DNA of 64,000 nt from Escherichia phage ZCEC14, in sequence record OP168898.1; one strand, given 5' to 3'. The position numbers were made by a program, and so were the translations under genes. The notes under the pieces were generated by a model, which was not told where the DNA came from, did no database searches, and saw only the letters and a list, made by a program, of their open reading frames with translations. This document shows, in pieces, positions 1 through 48,241 of this stretch; the stretch's first letter is position 1, and every line of letters begins with the position of its first letter.

Positions 1-312
1 AAACCAAAGCATCACGCCTACGGAATGTTCCAAAATTATTTGCCTACTATGCGAGCAAGAGTTAAGGAACTTGGTTATAATATGACCGATGCTGAAATAA
101 AAAGAATGTTGAATAAACGATCCAATTCAGCTTCCTGGGCGTACATTGAACTTTCTTATTGGTTAAATATACATAAGGGCGATATAAGAAAAGCAATATC
201 CTCTTATAATTCGGGATGGAATGTTAAAGCAGGTTCTAAATATGCTTCTGAAGTCCTAGAAAAGGCTAATTACCTTAAAAATAATAAACTTTTGGAAATA
301 GTAAATGACTAA
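1..312 (+). CDS. hypothetical protein, C-terminal portion (5' end outside window)
   Basis: Frame open from base 1 to stop at 310-312; track ORF 25-312 is its internal-Met part; weak SYNSGW motif. Confidence 0.45.
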   Translation, partial: KPKHHAYGMFQNYLPTMRARVKELGYNMTDAEIKRMLNKRSNSASWAYIELSYWLNIHKGDIRKAISSYNSGWNVKAGSKYASEVLEKANYLKNNKLLEIVND

Positions 313-652
313 AATTTTGGTTTTATGTATAGGATTAATTTCATTTTCTGCTTCTGCGTCAGCAGATACATCATATACTGAAATTAGAGAATATGTAAAC
401 CGCACTGCGGCAGATTATTGTGGGAAAAATAAAGCATGCCAAGCTGAATTTGCACAGAAATTAATATATGCATATAAAGACGGAGAAAGAGATAAATCAA
501 GCAGATACAAAAACGATACATTATTAAAACGATATGCTAAAAAGTGGAATACTTTAGAATGTTCAGTTGCGGAGGAGAAAGATAAAGCCGCTTGTCATTC
601 AATGGTTGACCGTTTGGTAGATTCTTATAATCGAGGATTGAGTACTAGATGA
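305..652 (+). CDS. small secreted/periplasmic protein (N-terminal signal peptide)
   Basis: 115-aa ORF; N-terminus MTKILVLCIGLISFSASASA; start overlaps upstream stop; lies in the vs/tk.x block by synteny. Confidence 0.6.
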   Translation: MTKILVLCIGLISFSASASADTSYTEIREYVNRTAADYCGKNKACQAEFAQKLIYAYKDGERDKSSRYKNDTLLKRYAKKWNTLECSVAEEKDKAACHSMVDRLVDSYNRGLSTR

Positions 653-1116
653 TTGTAAAATATATCAAGGGCGATATTGTCGCCCTTTTCGCTGAAGGTA
701 AAAATATTGCGCATGGATGCAATTGTTTTCATACTATGGGTTCAGGCGTAGCGGGTCAATTAACCAAAGCTTTCCCTAAAATTTTGGAAGCTGATAAATT
801 ACAGACTGAATGGGGTGATGTAACTAAACTCGGTTCTTACTCAGTCTATGAAAAATACTTTAGGACTCATAAAGCGTATTGCTTCAACCTTTATACTCAA
901 TTTCAACCAGGGCCAAATTTTGAGTATTCCGCTTTAATGAATTGTATGTTAGAATTAAATGAGTTTGGTGAAAATAAACTGATTAAACCTACAATCTATA
1001 TGCCTAGGATTGGTGCAGGCATAGGTAAAGGGAACTGGGATATTATTGAGGGGATTTTAGATACGTATTCCTCTAAATTAGAAATTGTGATTGTTGATTG
1101 GGAACCGTTATTATGA
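649..1116 (+). CDS. macro-domain protein (ADP-ribose binding/processing family)
   Basis: 155-aa ORF; Gly-rich loops HGCNCFHTMGSGVAGQL and IGAGIGKGNW resemble macro-domain signature. Confidence 0.65.
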   Translation: MIVKYIKGDIVALFAEGKNIAHGCNCFHTMGSGVAGQLTKAFPKILEADKLQTEWGDVTKLGSYSVYEKYFRTHKAYCFNLYTQFQPGPNFEYSALMNCMLELNEFGENKLIKPTIYMPRIGAGIGKGNWDIIEGILDTYSSKLEIVIVDWEPLL

Positions 1117-1325
1117 ATATACATTATCCACATCCATATGACCCAAAGAATAAGGCAGTAATTATTCGTCAATGGGAACGCATTTGTCGTACTAAATGTC
1201 CAATTAATAGTCCACATGATGTAGATAAAGATTACATTGGAACATTCGTTGAATATACCTTTATTGATAAGAAAGGTCGTAAACAGCACGTAGAAGAATA
1301 CTGCTTAAAGGTGACATGGTTATGA
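1113..1325 (+). CDS. hypothetical protein
   Basis: 70 aa from in-frame ATG of track ORF 1098-1325; ATGA overlap with upstream stop. Confidence 0.5.
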   Translation: MNIHYPHPYDPKNKAVIIRQWERICRTKCPINSPHDVDKDYIGTFVEYTFIDKKGRKQHVEEYCLKVTWL

Positions 1326-1528
1326 GTCAAACTAGTATTCTTAAAAATGCCCACTGTGAAAAGTGTAAATGGCCGGTTGTTTTTGCTTTATGCAACGATG
1401 AAATGGCTTGTGATTTCGATTATTGGTGCTATTGTTCTAATAAAGGATGCATCAATCATAAAGGTGAAGGATTTTATTCGGGATTTTATCCTTATCCAGA
1501 ATTCGTTAAAGAAGGTAAACCGAAATGA
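1322..1528 (+). CDS. Cys-rich small protein (possible zinc binding)
   Basis: 68 aa; HCEKC...C...C..CYC..C pattern; SD-like aaaggtga upstream. Confidence 0.5.
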   Translation: MSQTSILKNAHCEKCKWPVVFALCNDEMACDFDYWCYCSNKGCINHKGEGFYSGFYPYPEFVKEGKPK

Positions 1529-1698
1529 ATAGTTCTGAGCTACAATATGAAGTGTCACGTGAACTTGATAATTTAATTGAACTCGCTGCTAATAAAGGTT
1601 TTGCCATTGGAATTGGTCAAAAAGATACTGATCATTTAACTATGGAAATATTTAAGCAAAAGCGAATTATTTTAAAACTTCTGGAAATTAATATATGA
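1525..1698 (+). CDS. hypothetical protein
   Basis: 57-aa ORF below track cutoff; ATGA overlaps at both ends suggest translational coupling. Confidence 0.4.
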   Translation: MNSSELQYEVSRELDNLIELAANKGFAIGIGQKDTDHLTMEIFKQKRIILKLLEINI

Positions 1699-1880
1699 GC
1701 CTAAGCAAAGAACAAAAAGACAAACTCTTTTCTCTTATCCACGAAGTTATGGATAAAAATAGTGAATTGGAAAAAGTTTGTAATGAATGCGGTCCTTTTA
1801 GCGCAAATGAATACGAAGAACTTTCCAAAGAATTTGATAATAAAGAACAAGAACTCATTAATTATATAAATTCCTTATGA
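1695..1880 (+). CDS. small helical protein (xEQxxK family)
   Basis: 61-aa ORF; N-terminal SKEQKDKLF motif shared with neighbouring small ORFs. Confidence 0.5.
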   Translation: MSLSKEQKDKLFSLIHEVMDKNSELEKVCNECGPFSANEYEELSKEFDNKEQELINYINSL

Positions 1881-2065
1881 TTACTCGCGAACAAAAGAAC
1901 GAAATATTATTTTTAGTTGGTGAAATTATTAGTTTAGAAAAGGATTTGTCTTTTGAATTATCTTCTGATTATGGAGATGCCGAAACATATTACGAATTAG
2001 TAAAATCTATCGATAAAGCTGAAAATGATTTAGAAACATATTTAGAAAATTTAACTAAGGACTAA
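1877..2065 (+). CDS. small helical protein (xEQxxK family)
   Basis: 62-aa ORF; TREQKNEILF motif; paralogue of 1695-1880. Confidence 0.5.
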   Translation: MITREQKNEILFLVGEIISLEKDLSFELSSDYGDAETYYELVKSIDKAENDLETYLENLTKD

Positions 2066-2066
2066 A

Positions 2067-2648
2067 ATGGCGAGTTTAATTTTTACTTATGCAGCAATGA
2101 ATGCTGGAAAATCTGCTTCTCTTTTGACTGCTGCACATAATTATAAAGAACGCGGAATGAGTGTATTAGTTCTTAAGCCTGCTATTGATACTCGCGACTC
2201 TGTCTGTGAAGTCGTTTCTCGCATTGGAATTAAGCAGGAAGCGAATATTATCACAGATGATATGGATATTTTCGAGTTCTATAAATGGGCTGAAGCACAA
2301 AAAGATATTCATTGTGTATTTGTAGATGAAGCTCAGTTTTTAAAAACTGAACAGGTGCATCAATTAAGCCGAATTGTTGATACATATAATGTTCCTGTTA
2401 TGGCTTATGGATTAAGGACTGATTTCGCTGGAAAATTATTTGAAGGTTCTAAAGAACTTTTAGCGATTGCAGATAAACTTATTGAACTAAAAGCAGTTTG
2501 TCATTGCGGTAAAAAAGCGATTATGACAGCTCGATTAATGGAAGATGGAACACCAGTTAAAGAAGGTAATCAAATCTGTATTGGTGATGAAATTTATGTT
2601 TCTTTGTGTAGAAAACATTGGAATGAATTAACTAAAAAGCTCGGTTAG
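2067..2648 (+). CDS. tk: thymidine kinase
   Basis: 193 aa; P-loop AAMNAGKS, VDEAQF, C-terminal Cys pairs; matches T4 Tk. Confidence 0.9.
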   Translation: MASLIFTYAAMNAGKSASLLTAAHNYKERGMSVLVLKPAIDTRDSVCEVVSRIGIKQEANIITDDMDIFEFYKWAEAQKDIHCVFVDEAQFLKTEQVHQLSRIVDTYNVPVMAYGLRTDFAGKLFEGSKELLAIADKLIELKAVCHCGKKAIMTARLMEDGTPVKEGNQICIGDEIYVSLCRKHWNELTKKLG

Positions 2649-2657
2649 TGCAAAAGT

Positions 2658-2665
2658 TATAAATA
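2658..2665 (+). promoter_or_regulatory. late-promoter consensus TATAAATA
   Basis: Exact TATAAATA 26 nt upstream of ATG 2691. Confidence 0.45.
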
Positions 2666-2690
2666 GGTTTATCTAACTAAAGGGGTATAT

Positions 2691-2903
2691 ATGTTACAAT
2701 TAACTGAAAAGCAACTTCGCAATCTTACTGTGCTTCAATTAGATGAAATTCGTAGGGAAGTTGGAAATATCATTTCAGCTTTGCGTCGAGAAGTATCACT
2801 CAACCAATCTCCGGCAGACTATACTAGATTGCGAAATTTTGAAAAATACCTTGATAAAGTTAAGGCCGTGCATCGGCACAAAGTAAATACAGGACAAAAA
2901 TGA
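2691..2903 (+). CDS. hypothetical protein (rI.-1 position)
   Basis: 70-aa ORF with SD aagggg; immediately upstream of rI. Confidence 0.55.
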
Positions 2904-2915
2904 TAGGAGGCCTTT

Positions 2916-3209
2916 ATGGCCTTAAAAGCAACGGCACTATTTGCCATGCTAGGATTGTCATTTGTTTTATCTCCATCGATTGAAGCGAATGTCGATCCTC
3001 ATTTTGATAAATTTATGGAATCTGGTATTAGGCACGTTTATACACTTTTTGAAAATAAAAGCGTAGAATCGTCTGAACAATTCTATAGTTTTATGAGAAC
3101 GACCTATAAAAATGACCCGTGCTCTTCTGATTTTGAATGTATAGAGCGAGGCGCGGAGATGGCACAATCATACGCTAGAATTATGAACATTAAATTGGAG
3201 ACTGAATGA
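2916..3209 (+). CDS. rI: lysis-inhibition regulator RI (signal-anchor-release protein)
   Basis: 97 aa; N-terminal hydrophobic anchor MALKATALFAMLGLSFVL; matches T4 RI in length and sequence as recalled; SD aggagg. Confidence 0.8.
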   Translation: MALKATALFAMLGLSFVLSPSIEANVDPHFDKFMESGIRHVYTLFENKSVESSEQFYSFMRTTYKNDPCSSDFECIERGAEMAQSYARIMNIKLETE

Positions 3210-41294: not shown

Positions 41295-41651
41295 ATGTAT
41301 AGTTCTGAATTTTCATATTTAAAAATGGAAAAAATTTCATACGATTTTATAGATGAAAAGGTTTATTACAGTTTCCATGAACCACGTTTTAATAGTGAGG
41401 TTGGGTTTATTGTAGTAAAAGACAATTTCATTTTAAAAATATATTCGGCATTAAAGGATTTTCACTACGAAAATATTAACCTAAAATTTAATAAAGAAAA
41501 CGTTCGTAATTGCGCAGTAACAATTACAGGAAATAAAGGTACATGTGTTATGCTATCTGATGAAATTAATGATTTGCTAAATGATGCAGAAAATATTACT
41601 GCACCATCTATTGATGACCAAATTTTTAACGCTTTTATGAATAGAGGTTAA
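41295..41651 (+). CDS. hypothetical protein (61.2 position)
   Basis: 118-aa ORF. Confidence 0.5.
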   Translation: MYSSEFSYLKMEKISYDFIDEKVYYSFHEPRFNSEVGFIVVKDNFILKIYSALKDFHYENINLKFNKENVRNCAVTITGNKGTCVMLSDEINDLLNDAENITAPSIDDQIFNAFMNRG

Positions 41652-46155: not shown

Positions 46156-46779
46156 ATGATTATTAATCTTGTAGATGTTGAACAGTTATCTATAAAAGCT
46201 GAAAGTGTTGATTTTCAATATGATATGTATAAAAAGGTCTGTGAAAAATTTACTGACTTTGAACAGTCAATTCTTTGGCAATGTATGGAAGCCAAAAAGA
46301 ATGAAGCTCTTCATCAGCAGTTGAATAAAATCATTAAAAAGCATTTAACTAAATCACCTTATCAGCTATATCGTGGTATATCAAAATCGACAAAAGAACT
46401 CATTAAAGATTTACAAGTCGGAGAAGTGTTTTCAACGAACAGGGTAGATTCATTTACTACTAGTTTGCATACAGCGTGTTCTTTTTCTTATGCCGAATAT
46501 TTCACTGACACAATACTTCGCTTAAAAACTGATAAAGCTTTTAATTACTCTGACCATATCAGCGATATTATACTTTCTTCTCCTAATACTGAGTTTAAGT
46601 ACACGTATGAAGATACTGATGGATTAGATTCAGAACGTACTGATAACTTAATGATGATTGTACGTGAACAAGAATGGATGATTCCAATTGGAAAGTATAG
46701 AATAACTTCTATTTCAAAAGAAAAATTACACGATTCATTTGGAACATTTAAAGTTTATGATATTGAGGTAGTTGAATGA
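46156..46779 (+). CDS. modB: ADP-ribosyltransferase ModB
   Basis: 207 aa; R-S-E ART motifs YRG, STN and EQEWMIP. Confidence 0.75.
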   Translation: MIINLVDVEQLSIKAESVDFQYDMYKKVCEKFTDFEQSILWQCMEAKKNEALHQQLNKIIKKHLTKSPYQLYRGISKSTKELIKDLQVGEVFSTNRVDSFTTSLHTACSFSYAEYFTDTILRLKTDKAFNYSDHISDIILSSPNTEFKYTYEDTDGLDSERTDNLMMIVREQEWMIPIGKYRITSISKEKLHDSFGTFKVYDIEVVE

Positions 46780-47378
46780 AATACTCAGTAATGCAATTAA
46801 AAGATTTTAAAATCAAATCAATGGATGCATCGGTGCGTGCTTCTATTCGTGAGGAATTGCTTTCTGAAGGGTTTAATTTATCTGAAATTGAACTTTTAAT
46901 TCATTGTATTACCAACAAACCAGATGACCATACTTGGTTAAATGAAATAATCAAATCTCGTTTGGTTCCAAACGATAAACCTCTTTGGAGAGGTGTTCCA
47001 GCTGAGACTAAACAAGTATTAAATCAAGGAATTGATATTATTACATTTGATAAAGTCGTATCAGCTTCATATGATAAAAATATAGCTCTACATTTTGCTT
47101 CCGGTTTAGAATATAACACACAAGTTATTTTTGAATTCAAAGCTCCTATGGTATTCAATTTCCAGGAGTATGCTATAAAAGCTCTACGCTGTAAAGAATA
47201 CAATCCAAACTTTAAGTTTCCGGATAGTCATCGTTATCGTAATATGGAATTAGTTTCAGATGAACAAGAAGTAATGATACCAGCTGGAAGTGTATTTAGA
47301 ATTGCGGATAGATATGAGTATAAAAAGTATTCAACATACACTATCTATACTCTTGATTTTGAAGGATTTAATCTATAA
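46776..47378 (+). CDS. modA: ADP-ribosyltransferase ModA
   Basis: 200 aa; ART motifs WRG, SAS and EQEVMIP; paralogue of modB. Confidence 0.75.
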   Translation: MKYSVMQLKDFKIKSMDASVRASIREELLSEGFNLSEIELLIHCITNKPDDHTWLNEIIKSRLVPNDKPLWRGVPAETKQVLNQGIDIITFDKVVSASYDKNIALHFASGLEYNTQVIFEFKAPMVFNFQEYAIKALRCKEYNPNFKFPDSHRYRNMELVSDEQEVMIPAGSVFRIADRYEYKKYSTYTIYTLDFEGFNL

Positions 47379-47494: not shown

Positions 47495-48241
47495 ATGAAA
47501 CTGTCTAAAAATCAAATTCGTAAAATTACACGTCGTCTAGAGCATACTCAGGCATCTGCAAAAAGACGTTCTAAAGATTTTAACTTAGACTTCAATTACA
47601 TTAAGAACATTTTAGATCAAAAAGTTTGCGCTTACTCGGGAGAACCTTTTGATAATCGTATTGAAGGAGAGAAATTATCATTAGAACGTTTTGATAATAA
47701 CGTTGGATACATTAAAGGGAACGTTATTGCAGTAAAGAAAAAGTATAATACATTTCGCTCTGATTATACTTTAGAGGAGTTAATTGAAAAACGTGATTTG
47801 TTTGCTTTGCGAATTGGTCGTTCATCTGCGAAAAAAGTTCATAAACTAAATTTAGATGAAAAGAAATGGGCTAAAATCAAAAAGACTTATAATCAAATTA
47901 AAGCTATACAGAAAAAACGTGAAAACCGAATTGAACACATTTCTCAGCTTTCTAAATCAAAACAGACCTCTGACATTAAGCTAACGATTATAGCGCTTAA
48001 AGCTCGTATTGATGGTTCTCGTATAGCAGAAGGCGCTGAAGTTGTTAAACTGAACGTTCTTCTTAAAGGCTCGGATTGGAAAACCGTGAAAAAGTTGTCA
48101 GAAGCAGAAATGCAATATGATATGTGTGATAAAATTATTCAAGGTGTAGAGCGGTATCAAAACTTGTCTTTTATTGATAAACTTAAACTGAAAAGAGGAT
48201 ACCCGCTAAATTGCTCAATTTTTAAACTTATCCGAGGATAA
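47495..48241 (+). CDS. srd: Srd (sigma-related early protein)
   Basis: 248 aa; position between modA and dda as in T4; sequence identity not verified. Confidence 0.65.
   Translation: MKLSKNQIRKITRRLEHTQASAKRRSKDFNLDFNYIKNILDQKVCAYSGEPFDNRIEGEKLSLERFDNNVGYIKGNVIAVKKKYNTFRSDYTLEELIEKRDLFALRIGRSSAKKVHKLNLDEKKWAKIKKTYNQIKAIQKKRENRIEHISQLSKSKQTSDIKLTIIALKARIDGSRIAEGAEVVKLNVLLKGSDWKTVKKLSEAEMQYDMCDKIIQGVERYQNLSFIDKLKLKRGYPLNCSIFKLIRG

What the first reader, a model, noticed from the sequence alone, without database searches (positions are those of the whole stretch)
649..1116. Macro-domain protein in a genome that also encodes ADP-ribosyltransferases
The 155-aa ORF has macro-domain-like Gly-rich loops (GSGVAGQL, IGAGIGKG). 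The same window encodes the ART paralogues ModB and ModA at 46156-47378. A phage macro domain could reverse or read ADP-ribosylation, either the phage's own modification of host proteins or a host ADP-ribosylating defence.
Basis: partly seen in the sequence, partly recalled or inferred. Interest (0 to 1): 0.55.

Follow-up and report, generated by a model that had tools for sequence, protein, structure and literature searches.

The report
T4 tk.4 (adfM) anti-DarTG2 macrodomain
This is the T-even phage gene tk.4, a small ADP-ribose-removing (macrodomain) enzyme already shown in T4 to protect the phage from the bacterial DarTG2 defence, so the finding is correct but already known.

Summary

A 2025 preprint (HIDEN-SEQ) found tk.4 to be the only T4 gene needed on a DarTG2 host. 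A clean knockout became sensitive, and the gene was named adfM (anti-DarT factor Macrodomain). The suggested link to ModA/ModB has no support.

What I add is that Tk.4 is not a DarG-type enzyme. The catalytic lysine of DarG (K80) and TARG1 (K84) is an invariant glutamine here (Q84, 119 of 119 relatives), as in Streptomyces SCO6735, which cleaves thymidine-linked ADP-ribose using Gln85. The biochemically characterised PhiKZ AdfM is lysine-type and only about 18% identical, so phages recruited two different macrodomain lineages.

Tk.4 has no DarT-binding domain and no DarT neighbour. The enzymatic step in T4 is inferred, not shown. Verdict: already known, low interest.

The parts
649..1116 (+). 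tk.4 / adfM coding sequence (155 aa, single macrodomain; the end includes the TGA stop)
633..642 (+). Shine-Dalgarno-like purine stretch (GAGGA 633-637, GAG 640-642) upstream of the ATG
   Evidence: Read directly from the sequence. This is an inference, not tested.
649..652 (+). ATGA overlap: the tk.4 start codon overlaps the vs stop codon (vs ORF 305-652)
   Evidence: Suggests co-transcription and translational coupling (inferred).
712..723 (+). Codons H22-G23-C24-N25 at the end of strand beta-2. N25 corresponds to SCO6735 Asn27, which locks the catalytic Gln. H22 corresponds to SCO6735 His24 and Poa1p His23.
   Evidence: In the family, N25 is 118/119, H22 114/119 and G23 118/119. Alignments A2/A4. 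SCO6735 mutagenesis in PMC9411070.
739..762 (+). Gly-rich loop 1, GSGVAGQL (aa 31-38), a substrate/ADP-ribose-binding loop
   Evidence: G33 and A35 are invariant.
898..900 (+). Codon Q84 (CAA), the position of catalytic Lys80 of DarG and Lys84 of TARG1, and equivalent to Gln85 of SCO6735
   Evidence: Q in 119/119 family members. K in TARG1, Taq and Mtb DarG and PhiKZ gp104. Q in SCO6735 and BT1257.
1009..1032 (+). Gly-rich loop 2, IGAGIGKG (aa 121-128), the diphosphate-binding loop. G122 and G124 correspond to SCO6735 G126 and G128. G126 occupies the position of TARG1 Asp125.
   Evidence: I121, G122 and G124 are invariant.
1113..1116 (+). ATGA overlap: the tk.4 stop overlaps the likely ATG start of tk.3 (DUF7202)
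   Evidence: The Pfam DUF7202 match begins at residue 6 of the listed ORF, which is the Met at 1113.
41325..41648 (+). Context only: gene 61.2 (adfA), a second anti-DarT factor locus in the same window, here as a short allele
   Evidence: tblastn with T2 gp61.2 gives 99% identity. Pfam AdfA PF23813 scores 32.1 bits but covers only profile positions 126-211 of 211. adfA = gene 61.2 according to PMC9391042.
46156..47378 (+). Verified as present, but no functional link to tk.4 was found.

Best explanation
The ORF is tk.4 (adfM), an orphan, single-domain macrodomain made by T-even phages as a counter-defence against the bacterial DarTG2 toxin-antitoxin system. On infection, the host toxin DarT2 puts ADP-ribose on thymidine N3 in single-stranded phage DNA and stalls replication. 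Tk.4 most likely binds the ADP-ribose in its cleft between the two Gly-rich loops and hydrolyses the ribose-thymine bond, which restores normal DNA. It works as an antitoxin without a toxin. Its active site is of the glutamine type described for Streptomyces SCO6735 (Gln84 held by Asn25, water-mediated catalysis), not the lysine type of DarG and TARG1. Shown: the gene identity, the macrodomain fold, the active-site residues, and (from the literature) the genetic requirement for tk.4 on DarTG2 hosts. Inferred: that protection is by enzymatic de-ADP-ribosylation of DNA, and that the chemistry follows SCO6735.
Against: No biochemistry exists for T4 Tk.4. The preprint only says enzymatic removal 'seems likely', and it is a preprint. 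Tk.4 lacks the DarG/TARG1 catalytic lysine. It also lacks the 5-residue-longer 'mobile loop' with Lys89/Lys93 that PMC9411070 links to the high DNA activity of SCO6735, so transfer of that mechanism is not guaranteed. Catalytically dead SCO6735 can also inhibit DarT by binding, so protection by binding is not excluded. Databases mostly annotate the family as 'phosphatase'.
Confidence: 0.8

Rival explanations
1. Tk.4 protects against DarTG2 without catalysis, either by binding and inhibiting DarT2 directly (interaction-inhibition) or by shielding ADP-ribosylated sites.
For: Catalytically inactive SCO6735 (Q85A), DarG (K80A) and TARG1 (K84A) all inhibit DarT in vitro, and SCO6735 does so most strongly (PMC9411070). 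Tk.4 lacks the canonical catalytic lysine. No enzymology exists for Tk.4.
Against: Q84, N25, G122 and G124, the residues needed for SCO6735 catalysis, are invariant or nearly so over 119 diverse relatives. That is expected for an enzyme rather than a binder of one variable toxin. Tk.4 has no counterpart of the C-terminal DarT-binding domain of DarG: 155 aa against 346 aa in a true DarG.
Confidence: 0.08
2. Tk.4 erases or reads the phage's own ADP-ribosylation of host proteins by Alt, ModA and ModB.
For: modB and modA are in the same window. The Gln-type relative SCO6735 also has some protein de-ADP-ribosylating activity, on PARP1-type acidic-residue marks.
Against: The distributions do not match. 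There are 2,846 phage records with a Tk.4 homologue across many genera, against 1,071 with a ModB homologue, all enterobacterial T4-likes. tk.4 lies 45 kb from modA/modB in a different gene run. The T4 ARTs make arginine N-glycosidic linkages, which ALC1/TARG1-class macrodomains are not known to hydrolyse (established knowledge, not tested here). The only reported phenotype is on DarTG2.
Confidence: 0.03
3. Tk.4 is mainly a small-molecule enzyme, as the database label 'phosphatase' implies. It would be a Poa1p-like ADP-ribose-1''-phosphate phosphatase or O-acetyl-ADP-ribose deacetylase that processes NAD-derived metabolites.
Against: The label is transferred from yeast Poa1p and was never tested in phages. 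T4's own RNA repair (PNK plus Rnl1) does not generate ADP-ribose-1''-phosphate (established knowledge). This function does not explain the DarTG2-specific requirement. Poa1p has Ser, not the invariant Gln, at position 84.
Confidence: 0.05

Closest known systems
T4 Tk.4 = AdfM (anti-DarT factor Macrodomain), bioRxiv 10.1101/2025.11.20.689424
   Same: The protein is identical over 155/155 residues. The locus is the same, between vs and tk.
   Different: Nothing differs at the protein level. The window comes from a T2/RB18-like relative rather than T4 itself: flanking DNA is 98.5% identical to T2, ModB is at most 98.6% identical to any record, and adfA is a short allele.
SCO6735 (PDB 5E3B) and BT1257 (2FG1/2AFC): Gln-type ALC1-like macrodomains. 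SCO6735 cleaves thymidine-linked ADP-ribose on DNA (PMC9411070).
   Different: Identity is only about 20-30%. Tk.4 lacks the 5-residue-longer mobile loop carrying Lys89 and Lys93, and the position of Lys34 is Ser32. Tk.4 is phage-borne rather than a chromosomal, DNA-damage-induced gene.
DarG, the antitoxin of DarTG2 (Thermus aquaticus 5M31/5M3E, M. tuberculosis 5M3I, Thermosipho 7OMU)
   Different: The catalytic Lys80 is replaced by Gln84. There is no C-terminal DarT-binding domain (155 aa against about 346 aa) and no adjacent DarT/DUF4433 gene. The NCBIfam DarG equivalog scores 30 bits against a cut-off of 250.
Chimallivirus AdfM (PhiKZ gp104), Cell Rep 2026, PMC13309987
   Same: It has the same name and the same role: a phage-encoded orphan macrodomain that counters DarTG2. 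Removal of ADPr from a TNTC oligonucleotide was shown biochemically for gp104.
   Different: It belongs to a different lineage. gp104 carries the DarG motif FPTK (Lys-type) and is about 18% identical to Tk.4. Pairwise BLASTP finds only a 23-residue match (E 0.005). A tblastn search with Taq DarG finds chimalliviruses and Kuravirus-type phages among the listed hits and no T-even phage.
Human TARG1/OARD1 and yeast Poa1p
   Same: Both belong to the same ALC1/TARG1/Poa1p-like macrodomain class. TARG1 also reverses dT-ADPr and U-ADPr.
   Different: The TARG1 catalytic dyad Lys84/Asp125 is Gln84/Gly126 in Tk.4. Poa1p has Ser at position 84 and acts on a metabolite.

Membership tests
Macrodomain superfamily (Pfam PF01661) | Profile match above the curated threshold | tested here: met
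   27.7 bits against a cut-off of 22, E 2.9e-6, profile positions 2-113 of 118.
Macrodomain superfamily (Pfam PF01661) | Alpha/beta/alpha macro fold | tested here: met
Macrodomain superfamily (Pfam PF01661) | Two Gly-rich ADP-ribose/diphosphate-binding loops and the conserved Asn after strand beta-2 | tested here: met
   GSGVAGQL (aa 31-38), IGAGIGKG (aa 121-128) and N25 are present. G33, G122 and G124 are invariant and N25 is 118/119.
ALC1/TARG1-like macrodomain class | Closest structural and sequence relatives fall in this class rather than in MacroD, PARG or macroH2A | tested here: met
DarG (antitoxin of DarTG2) | Catalytic lysine (Taq/Mtb DarG Lys80) | tested here: not met
   The position is Gln84, in 119/119 family members.
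DarG (antitoxin of DarTG2) | C-terminal DarT-binding domain (protein of about 330-350 aa) | tested here: not met
   Tk.4 is 155 aa, all macrodomain. A true DarG next to DUF4433 is 346 aa. The NCBIfam DarG equivalog scores 30.3 bits against a cut-off of 250, matching profile positions 2-146 of 338 only.
DarG (antitoxin of DarTG2) | Encoded next to a DarT (DUF4433) toxin gene | tested here: not met
   The neighbours are vs, tk.3 (DUF7202) and tk.2 (zinc-binding domain). Homologues on other contigs also lack a DarT neighbour.
SCO6735/BT1257 subclass (Gln-type dT-ADPr hydrolases) | Gln at the catalytic position, held by the conserved Asn | tested here: met
   Q84 aligns with Q85 and N25 with N27. 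The roles of these residues come from PMC9411070.
SCO6735/BT1257 subclass (Gln-type dT-ADPr hydrolases) | Mobile loop five residues longer than in DarG/TARG1, with Lys89/Lys93 | tested here: not met
   The Tk.4 loop after Q84 has the short DarG/TARG1 length and no lysines (QFQPGPNFEY).
AdfM of T4 (anti-DarTG2 factor) | Orthology to T4 tk.4 | tested here: met
   100% protein identity to T4 ORF 60.5 and the same synteny.
AdfM of T4 (anti-DarTG2 factor) | Needed for phage growth on a DarTG2 host; removes ADP-ribose from DarT2-modified DNA | not testable with these tools
   The genetic requirement is reported in the preprint. Enzymatic removal has not been reported for Tk.4, only for PhiKZ gp104 and SCO6735.
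Poa1p-like ADP-ribose-1''-phosphate phosphatase (source of the 'phosphatase' label) | Poa1p residues His23 and Ser30 (the residues mutated in PDB entries 6LFS and 6LFT; treating them as active-site residues is my inference), and phosphatase activity | tested here: inconclusive
   H22 aligns with His23. Ser30 aligns with T29, which is Thr in only 74/119 relatives. Activity cannot be tested here.

The most novel reading that the evidence does not exclude
The Tk.4 clade, found in about 2,800 phage genomes, would be a third, essentially phage-specific subclass of ALC1-like macrodomains. It combines SCO6735-type glutamine chemistry with a short DarG-type loop and was recruited independently of the lysine-type AdfM of chimalliviruses. 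Because Gln-type SCO6735 also cleaves uracil-linked RNA ADP-ribose and acidic-residue protein ADP-ribose, Tk.4 could be a broad-spectrum eraser. It might protect T-even phages against further, still unknown nucleic-acid or protein ADP-ribosylating defences, and not only DarTG2.
Probability: 0.3. Interest if true: 0.4.

Novelty: already known. Interest (0 to 1): 0.15.

Why it matters
The gene fills a gap left by earlier work: T4 lacking adfA and adfN stayed resistant to DarTG2, and tk.4/adfM explains that. For a genome scan this means the finding is a correct re-discovery, not a lead. The useful residue is mechanistic. The T-even AdfM has a glutamine where DarG, TARG1 and PhiKZ AdfM have their catalytic lysine, so calling it a 'DarG homologue' hides a different active site and an independent recruitment. 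That bears on how to design catalytic-dead controls (Q84A or N25A, not a lysine mutant). It also bears on predicting which of the many phage macrodomains labelled 'phosphatase' are anti-DarT factors.

Tried and rejected
1. The sigma-70 promoter and terminator scan of 1-2800 found 15 promoter-like sites against 13.4 expected from shuffles, so it says nothing about the transcription of tk.4.
2. A perfect 8-9 bp hairpin at 667-687, just inside the tk.4 coding region, looked like a possible regulatory element. The fold energy of 630-700 is not unusual (z -0.64; 46 of 200 shuffles fold as well), so I dropped it.
3. Pfam gave no hit for ModA or ModB. I used PHROGs and annotated relatives instead.
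4. Homologues labelled as coming from bacterial MAGs (P0072, P0118) were checked for a DarT neighbour or a chromosomal context. Both contigs are T4-like phage DNA carrying Rnl1, a Dda-like helicase, PNKP and dCMP deaminase, so they give no evidence of a bacterial source.
5. The plasmid search gave few hits (35 records) and no close homologue apart from one 137-kb E. coli record at 39% identity. It was useful only for fetching a true DarTG locus and a SCO6735 relative.
6. LeRoux et al. 2022 (PMC9250638) is not held. The statement that adfA = gene 61.2 was taken from PMC9391042 instead.
7. I considered and rejected filing Tk.4 as a DarG family member, because three defining features failed. I also rejected filing it as a full SCO6735-subclass member, because the mobile loop is absent.
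8. No residue-level check on the 3D model was possible, because model coordinates are not exposed. Active-site equivalences therefore rest on sequence and profile alignments that agree across five independent alignments.

Full report
**1. What is there**

The window is a T-even (Tequatrovirus) genome segment. Bases 1-3000 are 98.5-98.6% identical to phages RB18 and T2. Annotated relatives have the gene order vs.1, vs, tk.4, tk.3, tk.2, tk.1, tk.

The ORF at 649-1116 (+) is 155 aa (17.5 kDa, pI 5.9). Its G+C content of 35.5% is like the window's 34.4%. Its ATG overlaps the stop of vs (ATGA at 649-652). Its stop overlaps the probable start of tk.3 (ATGA at 1113-1116). It therefore sits in a tightly packed, co-directional gene run.

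The protein is 100% identical to T4 ORF 60.5, which is Tk.4.

**2. Is it a macrodomain?**

Yes, by every test.
- Pfam Macro scores 27.7 bits against a cut-off of 22, E 2.9e-6, nearly full length.
- The PADLOC DarG model gives E 1.3e-9.
- phmmer against PDB sequences finds BT1257 (1.3e-9), Poa1p, SCO6735, DarG and TARG1. A profile of 46 relatives raises these to between 1e-17 and 6e-11.
- An AlphaFold2 model built on that alignment is confident (pLDDT 94.8, pTM 0.90).

Tk.4 therefore belongs to the ALC1/TARG1/DarG/Poa1p-like class.

**3. What is already known**

The literature search found that this gene has been characterised genetically.
- Johannesman et al. [quoted passage not shown]
- The HIDEN-SEQ preprint (10.1101/2025.11.20.689424) screened a T4 transposon library on a DarTG2 host. 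It found tk.4 as the single significant hit and showed that a clean knockout is sensitised. It noted structural similarity to Mtb DarG and named the gene adfM, 'anti-DarT factor Macrodomain'. It states only that enzymatic removal of ADP-ribose from DNA 'seems likely'.
- Independently, a Cell Reports 2026 paper (PMC13309987) gave the same name to PhiKZ gp104. It showed biochemically that gp104 removes ADP-ribose from a DarT2-modified TNTC oligonucleotide and rescues DarT2 toxicity.

**4. What the sequence adds: a glutamine-type active site**

I obtained the sequences of Taq and Mtb DarG, TARG1, BT1257 and SCO6735 from PDB alignments. I also fetched a true DarTG2 locus (DUF4433 plus a 346-aa macro protein) and PhiKZ gp104 itself.

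Five alignments built in different ways place Tk.4 Gln84 at the position of the catalytic lysine: DarG Lys80, TARG1 Lys84, and the Lys of the FPTK motif in gp104 and in phage SU10. TARG1 Asp125 corresponds to Gly126.

Conservation across 119 Tk.4 relatives is as follows:

| Residue | Conservation |
|---|---|
| Q84 | 119/119 |
| N25 | 118/119 |
| G23 | 118/119 |
| H22 | 114/119 |
| G122 | invariant |
| G124 | invariant |

The same Gln is found in SCO6735 (Gln85) and BT1257. According to PMC9411070, SCO6735:
- lacks the TARG1/DarG catalytic residues;
- cleaves thymidine-linked but not guanine-linked ADP-ribose on DNA, faster than DarG or TARG1;
- rescues E. coli from DarT;
- is killed by Q85A or Q85E, nearly killed by N27S, and weakened by G128E.

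The mechanism proposed there has a water molecule positioned by the Val25 backbone, with Gln85 (locked by Asn27) positioning the substrate. Tk.4 keeps the equivalents of all of these: G23, N25, Q84 and G124.

Tk.4 does not have the feature that the same paper uses to define the SCO6735/BT1257 subclass. That feature is a mobile loop five residues longer, with Lys89 and Lys93. The Tk.4 loop has the short DarG/TARG1 length and no lysines.

Tk.4 thus combines a SCO6735-like catalytic centre with a DarG-like loop. By profile score it is roughly equidistant from BT1257 (67 bits), TARG1 (57), SCO6735 (54), Poa1p (54) and DarG (46-52).

**5. Two phage 'AdfM' lineages**

PhiKZ gp104 is lysine-type and about 18% identical to Tk.4. 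BLASTP finds only a 23-residue match, E 0.005.

A tblastn search with Taq DarG finds 298 phage records. The listed hits are chimalliviruses, Kuravirus/SU10-like phages, a Thermus phage and others, and no T-even phage appears among them.

A tblastn search with Tk.4 finds 2,846 records: Tevenvirinae and other Straboviridae, Vequintavirinae, Felix-O1-like phages, Pakpunavirus, and Campylobacter, Vibrio, Acinetobacter and Aeromonas phages.

The same counter-defence job therefore appears to have been filled twice, from different branches of the macrodomain class. This is an inference from sequence, not a formal phylogeny.

**6. Membership**

Tk.4 is a macrodomain of the ALC1/TARG1-like class and is T4 AdfM by identity. 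It is not a DarG. It has no catalytic Lys, no C-terminal DarT-binding domain and no DarT neighbour, and it scores 30 bits against the 250-bit NCBIfam DarG cut-off. It 'works like' DarG only in the sense of the presumed substrate. It is not a full member of the SCO6735 subclass either, because the loop is missing.

**7. The ModA/ModB link**

modB (46156-46779) and modA (46776-47378) are present, but nothing ties them to tk.4.
- They lie 45 kb away.
- ModB homologues are confined to 1,071 records of enterobacterial T4-likes. At least about 1,800 of the 2,846 macro-bearing records therefore have no ModB homologue at E 1e-3 or better.
- Their arginine-linked product is not a known substrate of this macrodomain class. 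That last point is established knowledge and was not tested here.

**8. Most likely mechanism, and how sure**

The most likely sequence of events is:
1. DarT2 ADP-ribosylates thymidine in phage ssDNA.
2. Tk.4 binds the ADP-ribose between loop 1 (aa 31-38) and loop 2 (aa 121-128).
3. Gln84, held by Asn25, positions the ribose-thymine bond for water-mediated hydrolysis.
4. ADP-ribose is released and replication resumes.

My confidence levels are:
- about 0.95 that the gene is adfM and a macrodomain;
- about 0.85 for the anti-DarTG2 role, which rests on one preprint;
- about 0.75-0.8 that protection is catalytic and SCO6735-like.

Rivals are inhibition of DarT2 by binding (0.08), a metabolite phosphatase or deacetylase role (0.05), and erasure of the phage's own marks (0.03).

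**9. Verdict**

Novelty: already known. Interest is low (0.15). The only new element is the Gln-type, short-loop active site and the independence from the PhiKZ-type AdfM, which is a refinement worth a sentence in a paper rather than a discovery.

Noticed in passing
window 41295-41651 (+), core 41325-41648: Gene 61.2 (adfA, the anti-DarT1 factor) is present only as a short allele of 108-118 aa. It is 99% identical to T2 gp61.2 and matches only positions 126-211 of the 211-position Pfam AdfA model. It follows the spackle (sp) gene directly. This phage, like T2, probably lacks a full-length AdfA.
   Followed up: partly
window 305-1528 (+): vs, tk.4, tk.3 and tk.2 form a chain of start/stop overlaps of the ATGA type, at 649-652, 1113-1116 and probably 1322-1325. 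This suggests one translationally coupled unit. tk.3 is DUF7202 and tk.2 is a 'phage zinc binding domain', and both are of unknown function.
   Followed up: partly
window 667-687 (+), inside tk.4 codons 7-13: A perfect 8-9 bp GC-rich hairpin (AAGGGCGA-TATTG-TCGCCCTT) lies 18 nt downstream of the tk.4 start codon. The terminator scan flags it on the minus strand. The fold energy of the region is not unusual against shuffles (z -0.64), so it is probably chance.
   Followed up: yes
phage records H38 (Acinetobacter phage B09_Aci02-2) and H46 (Vibrio phage Gary): In some non-T-even phages the Tk.4-type macrodomain lies next to nicotinamide phosphoribosyltransferase or ribose-phosphate pyrophosphokinase genes, which are NAD+ salvage or reconstitution genes. 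This hints at a link between ADP-ribose erasure and NAD+ recycling in those phages.
   Followed up: no
plasmid records H69-H78 (Bacillus thuringiensis and relatives): Weak Tk.4 matches (about 27% identity) fall in proteins annotated 'SLOG family protein' on 235-kb Bacillus plasmids. These may be macro-SLOG fusions of the Thoeris ThsA type.
   Followed up: no
L006 (GCA_051648945.1 contig) and L007 (GCA_051660865.1 contig): Two contigs filed under bacterial MAGs (Bacilli, Culicoidibacterales) that carry Tk.4 homologues are really T4-like phage DNA, with T4 Rnl1, a Dda-like helicase, PNKP, dCMP deaminase and a spanin. They are presumably phages binned with their hosts.
   Followed up: partly
window 47495-48241 (+): A 248-aa ORF lies just downstream of modA and has no Pfam match at E 0.01 or better. 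I did not identify it.
   Followed up: no
plasmid record CP057073.1 (E. coli, 137.6 kb), hit H56: This is the only close non-phage-database hit to Tk.4 (39% identity, 98% coverage), on a 137-kb 'plasmid'. It may be a phage-plasmid or a mis-filed phage genome.
   Followed up: no
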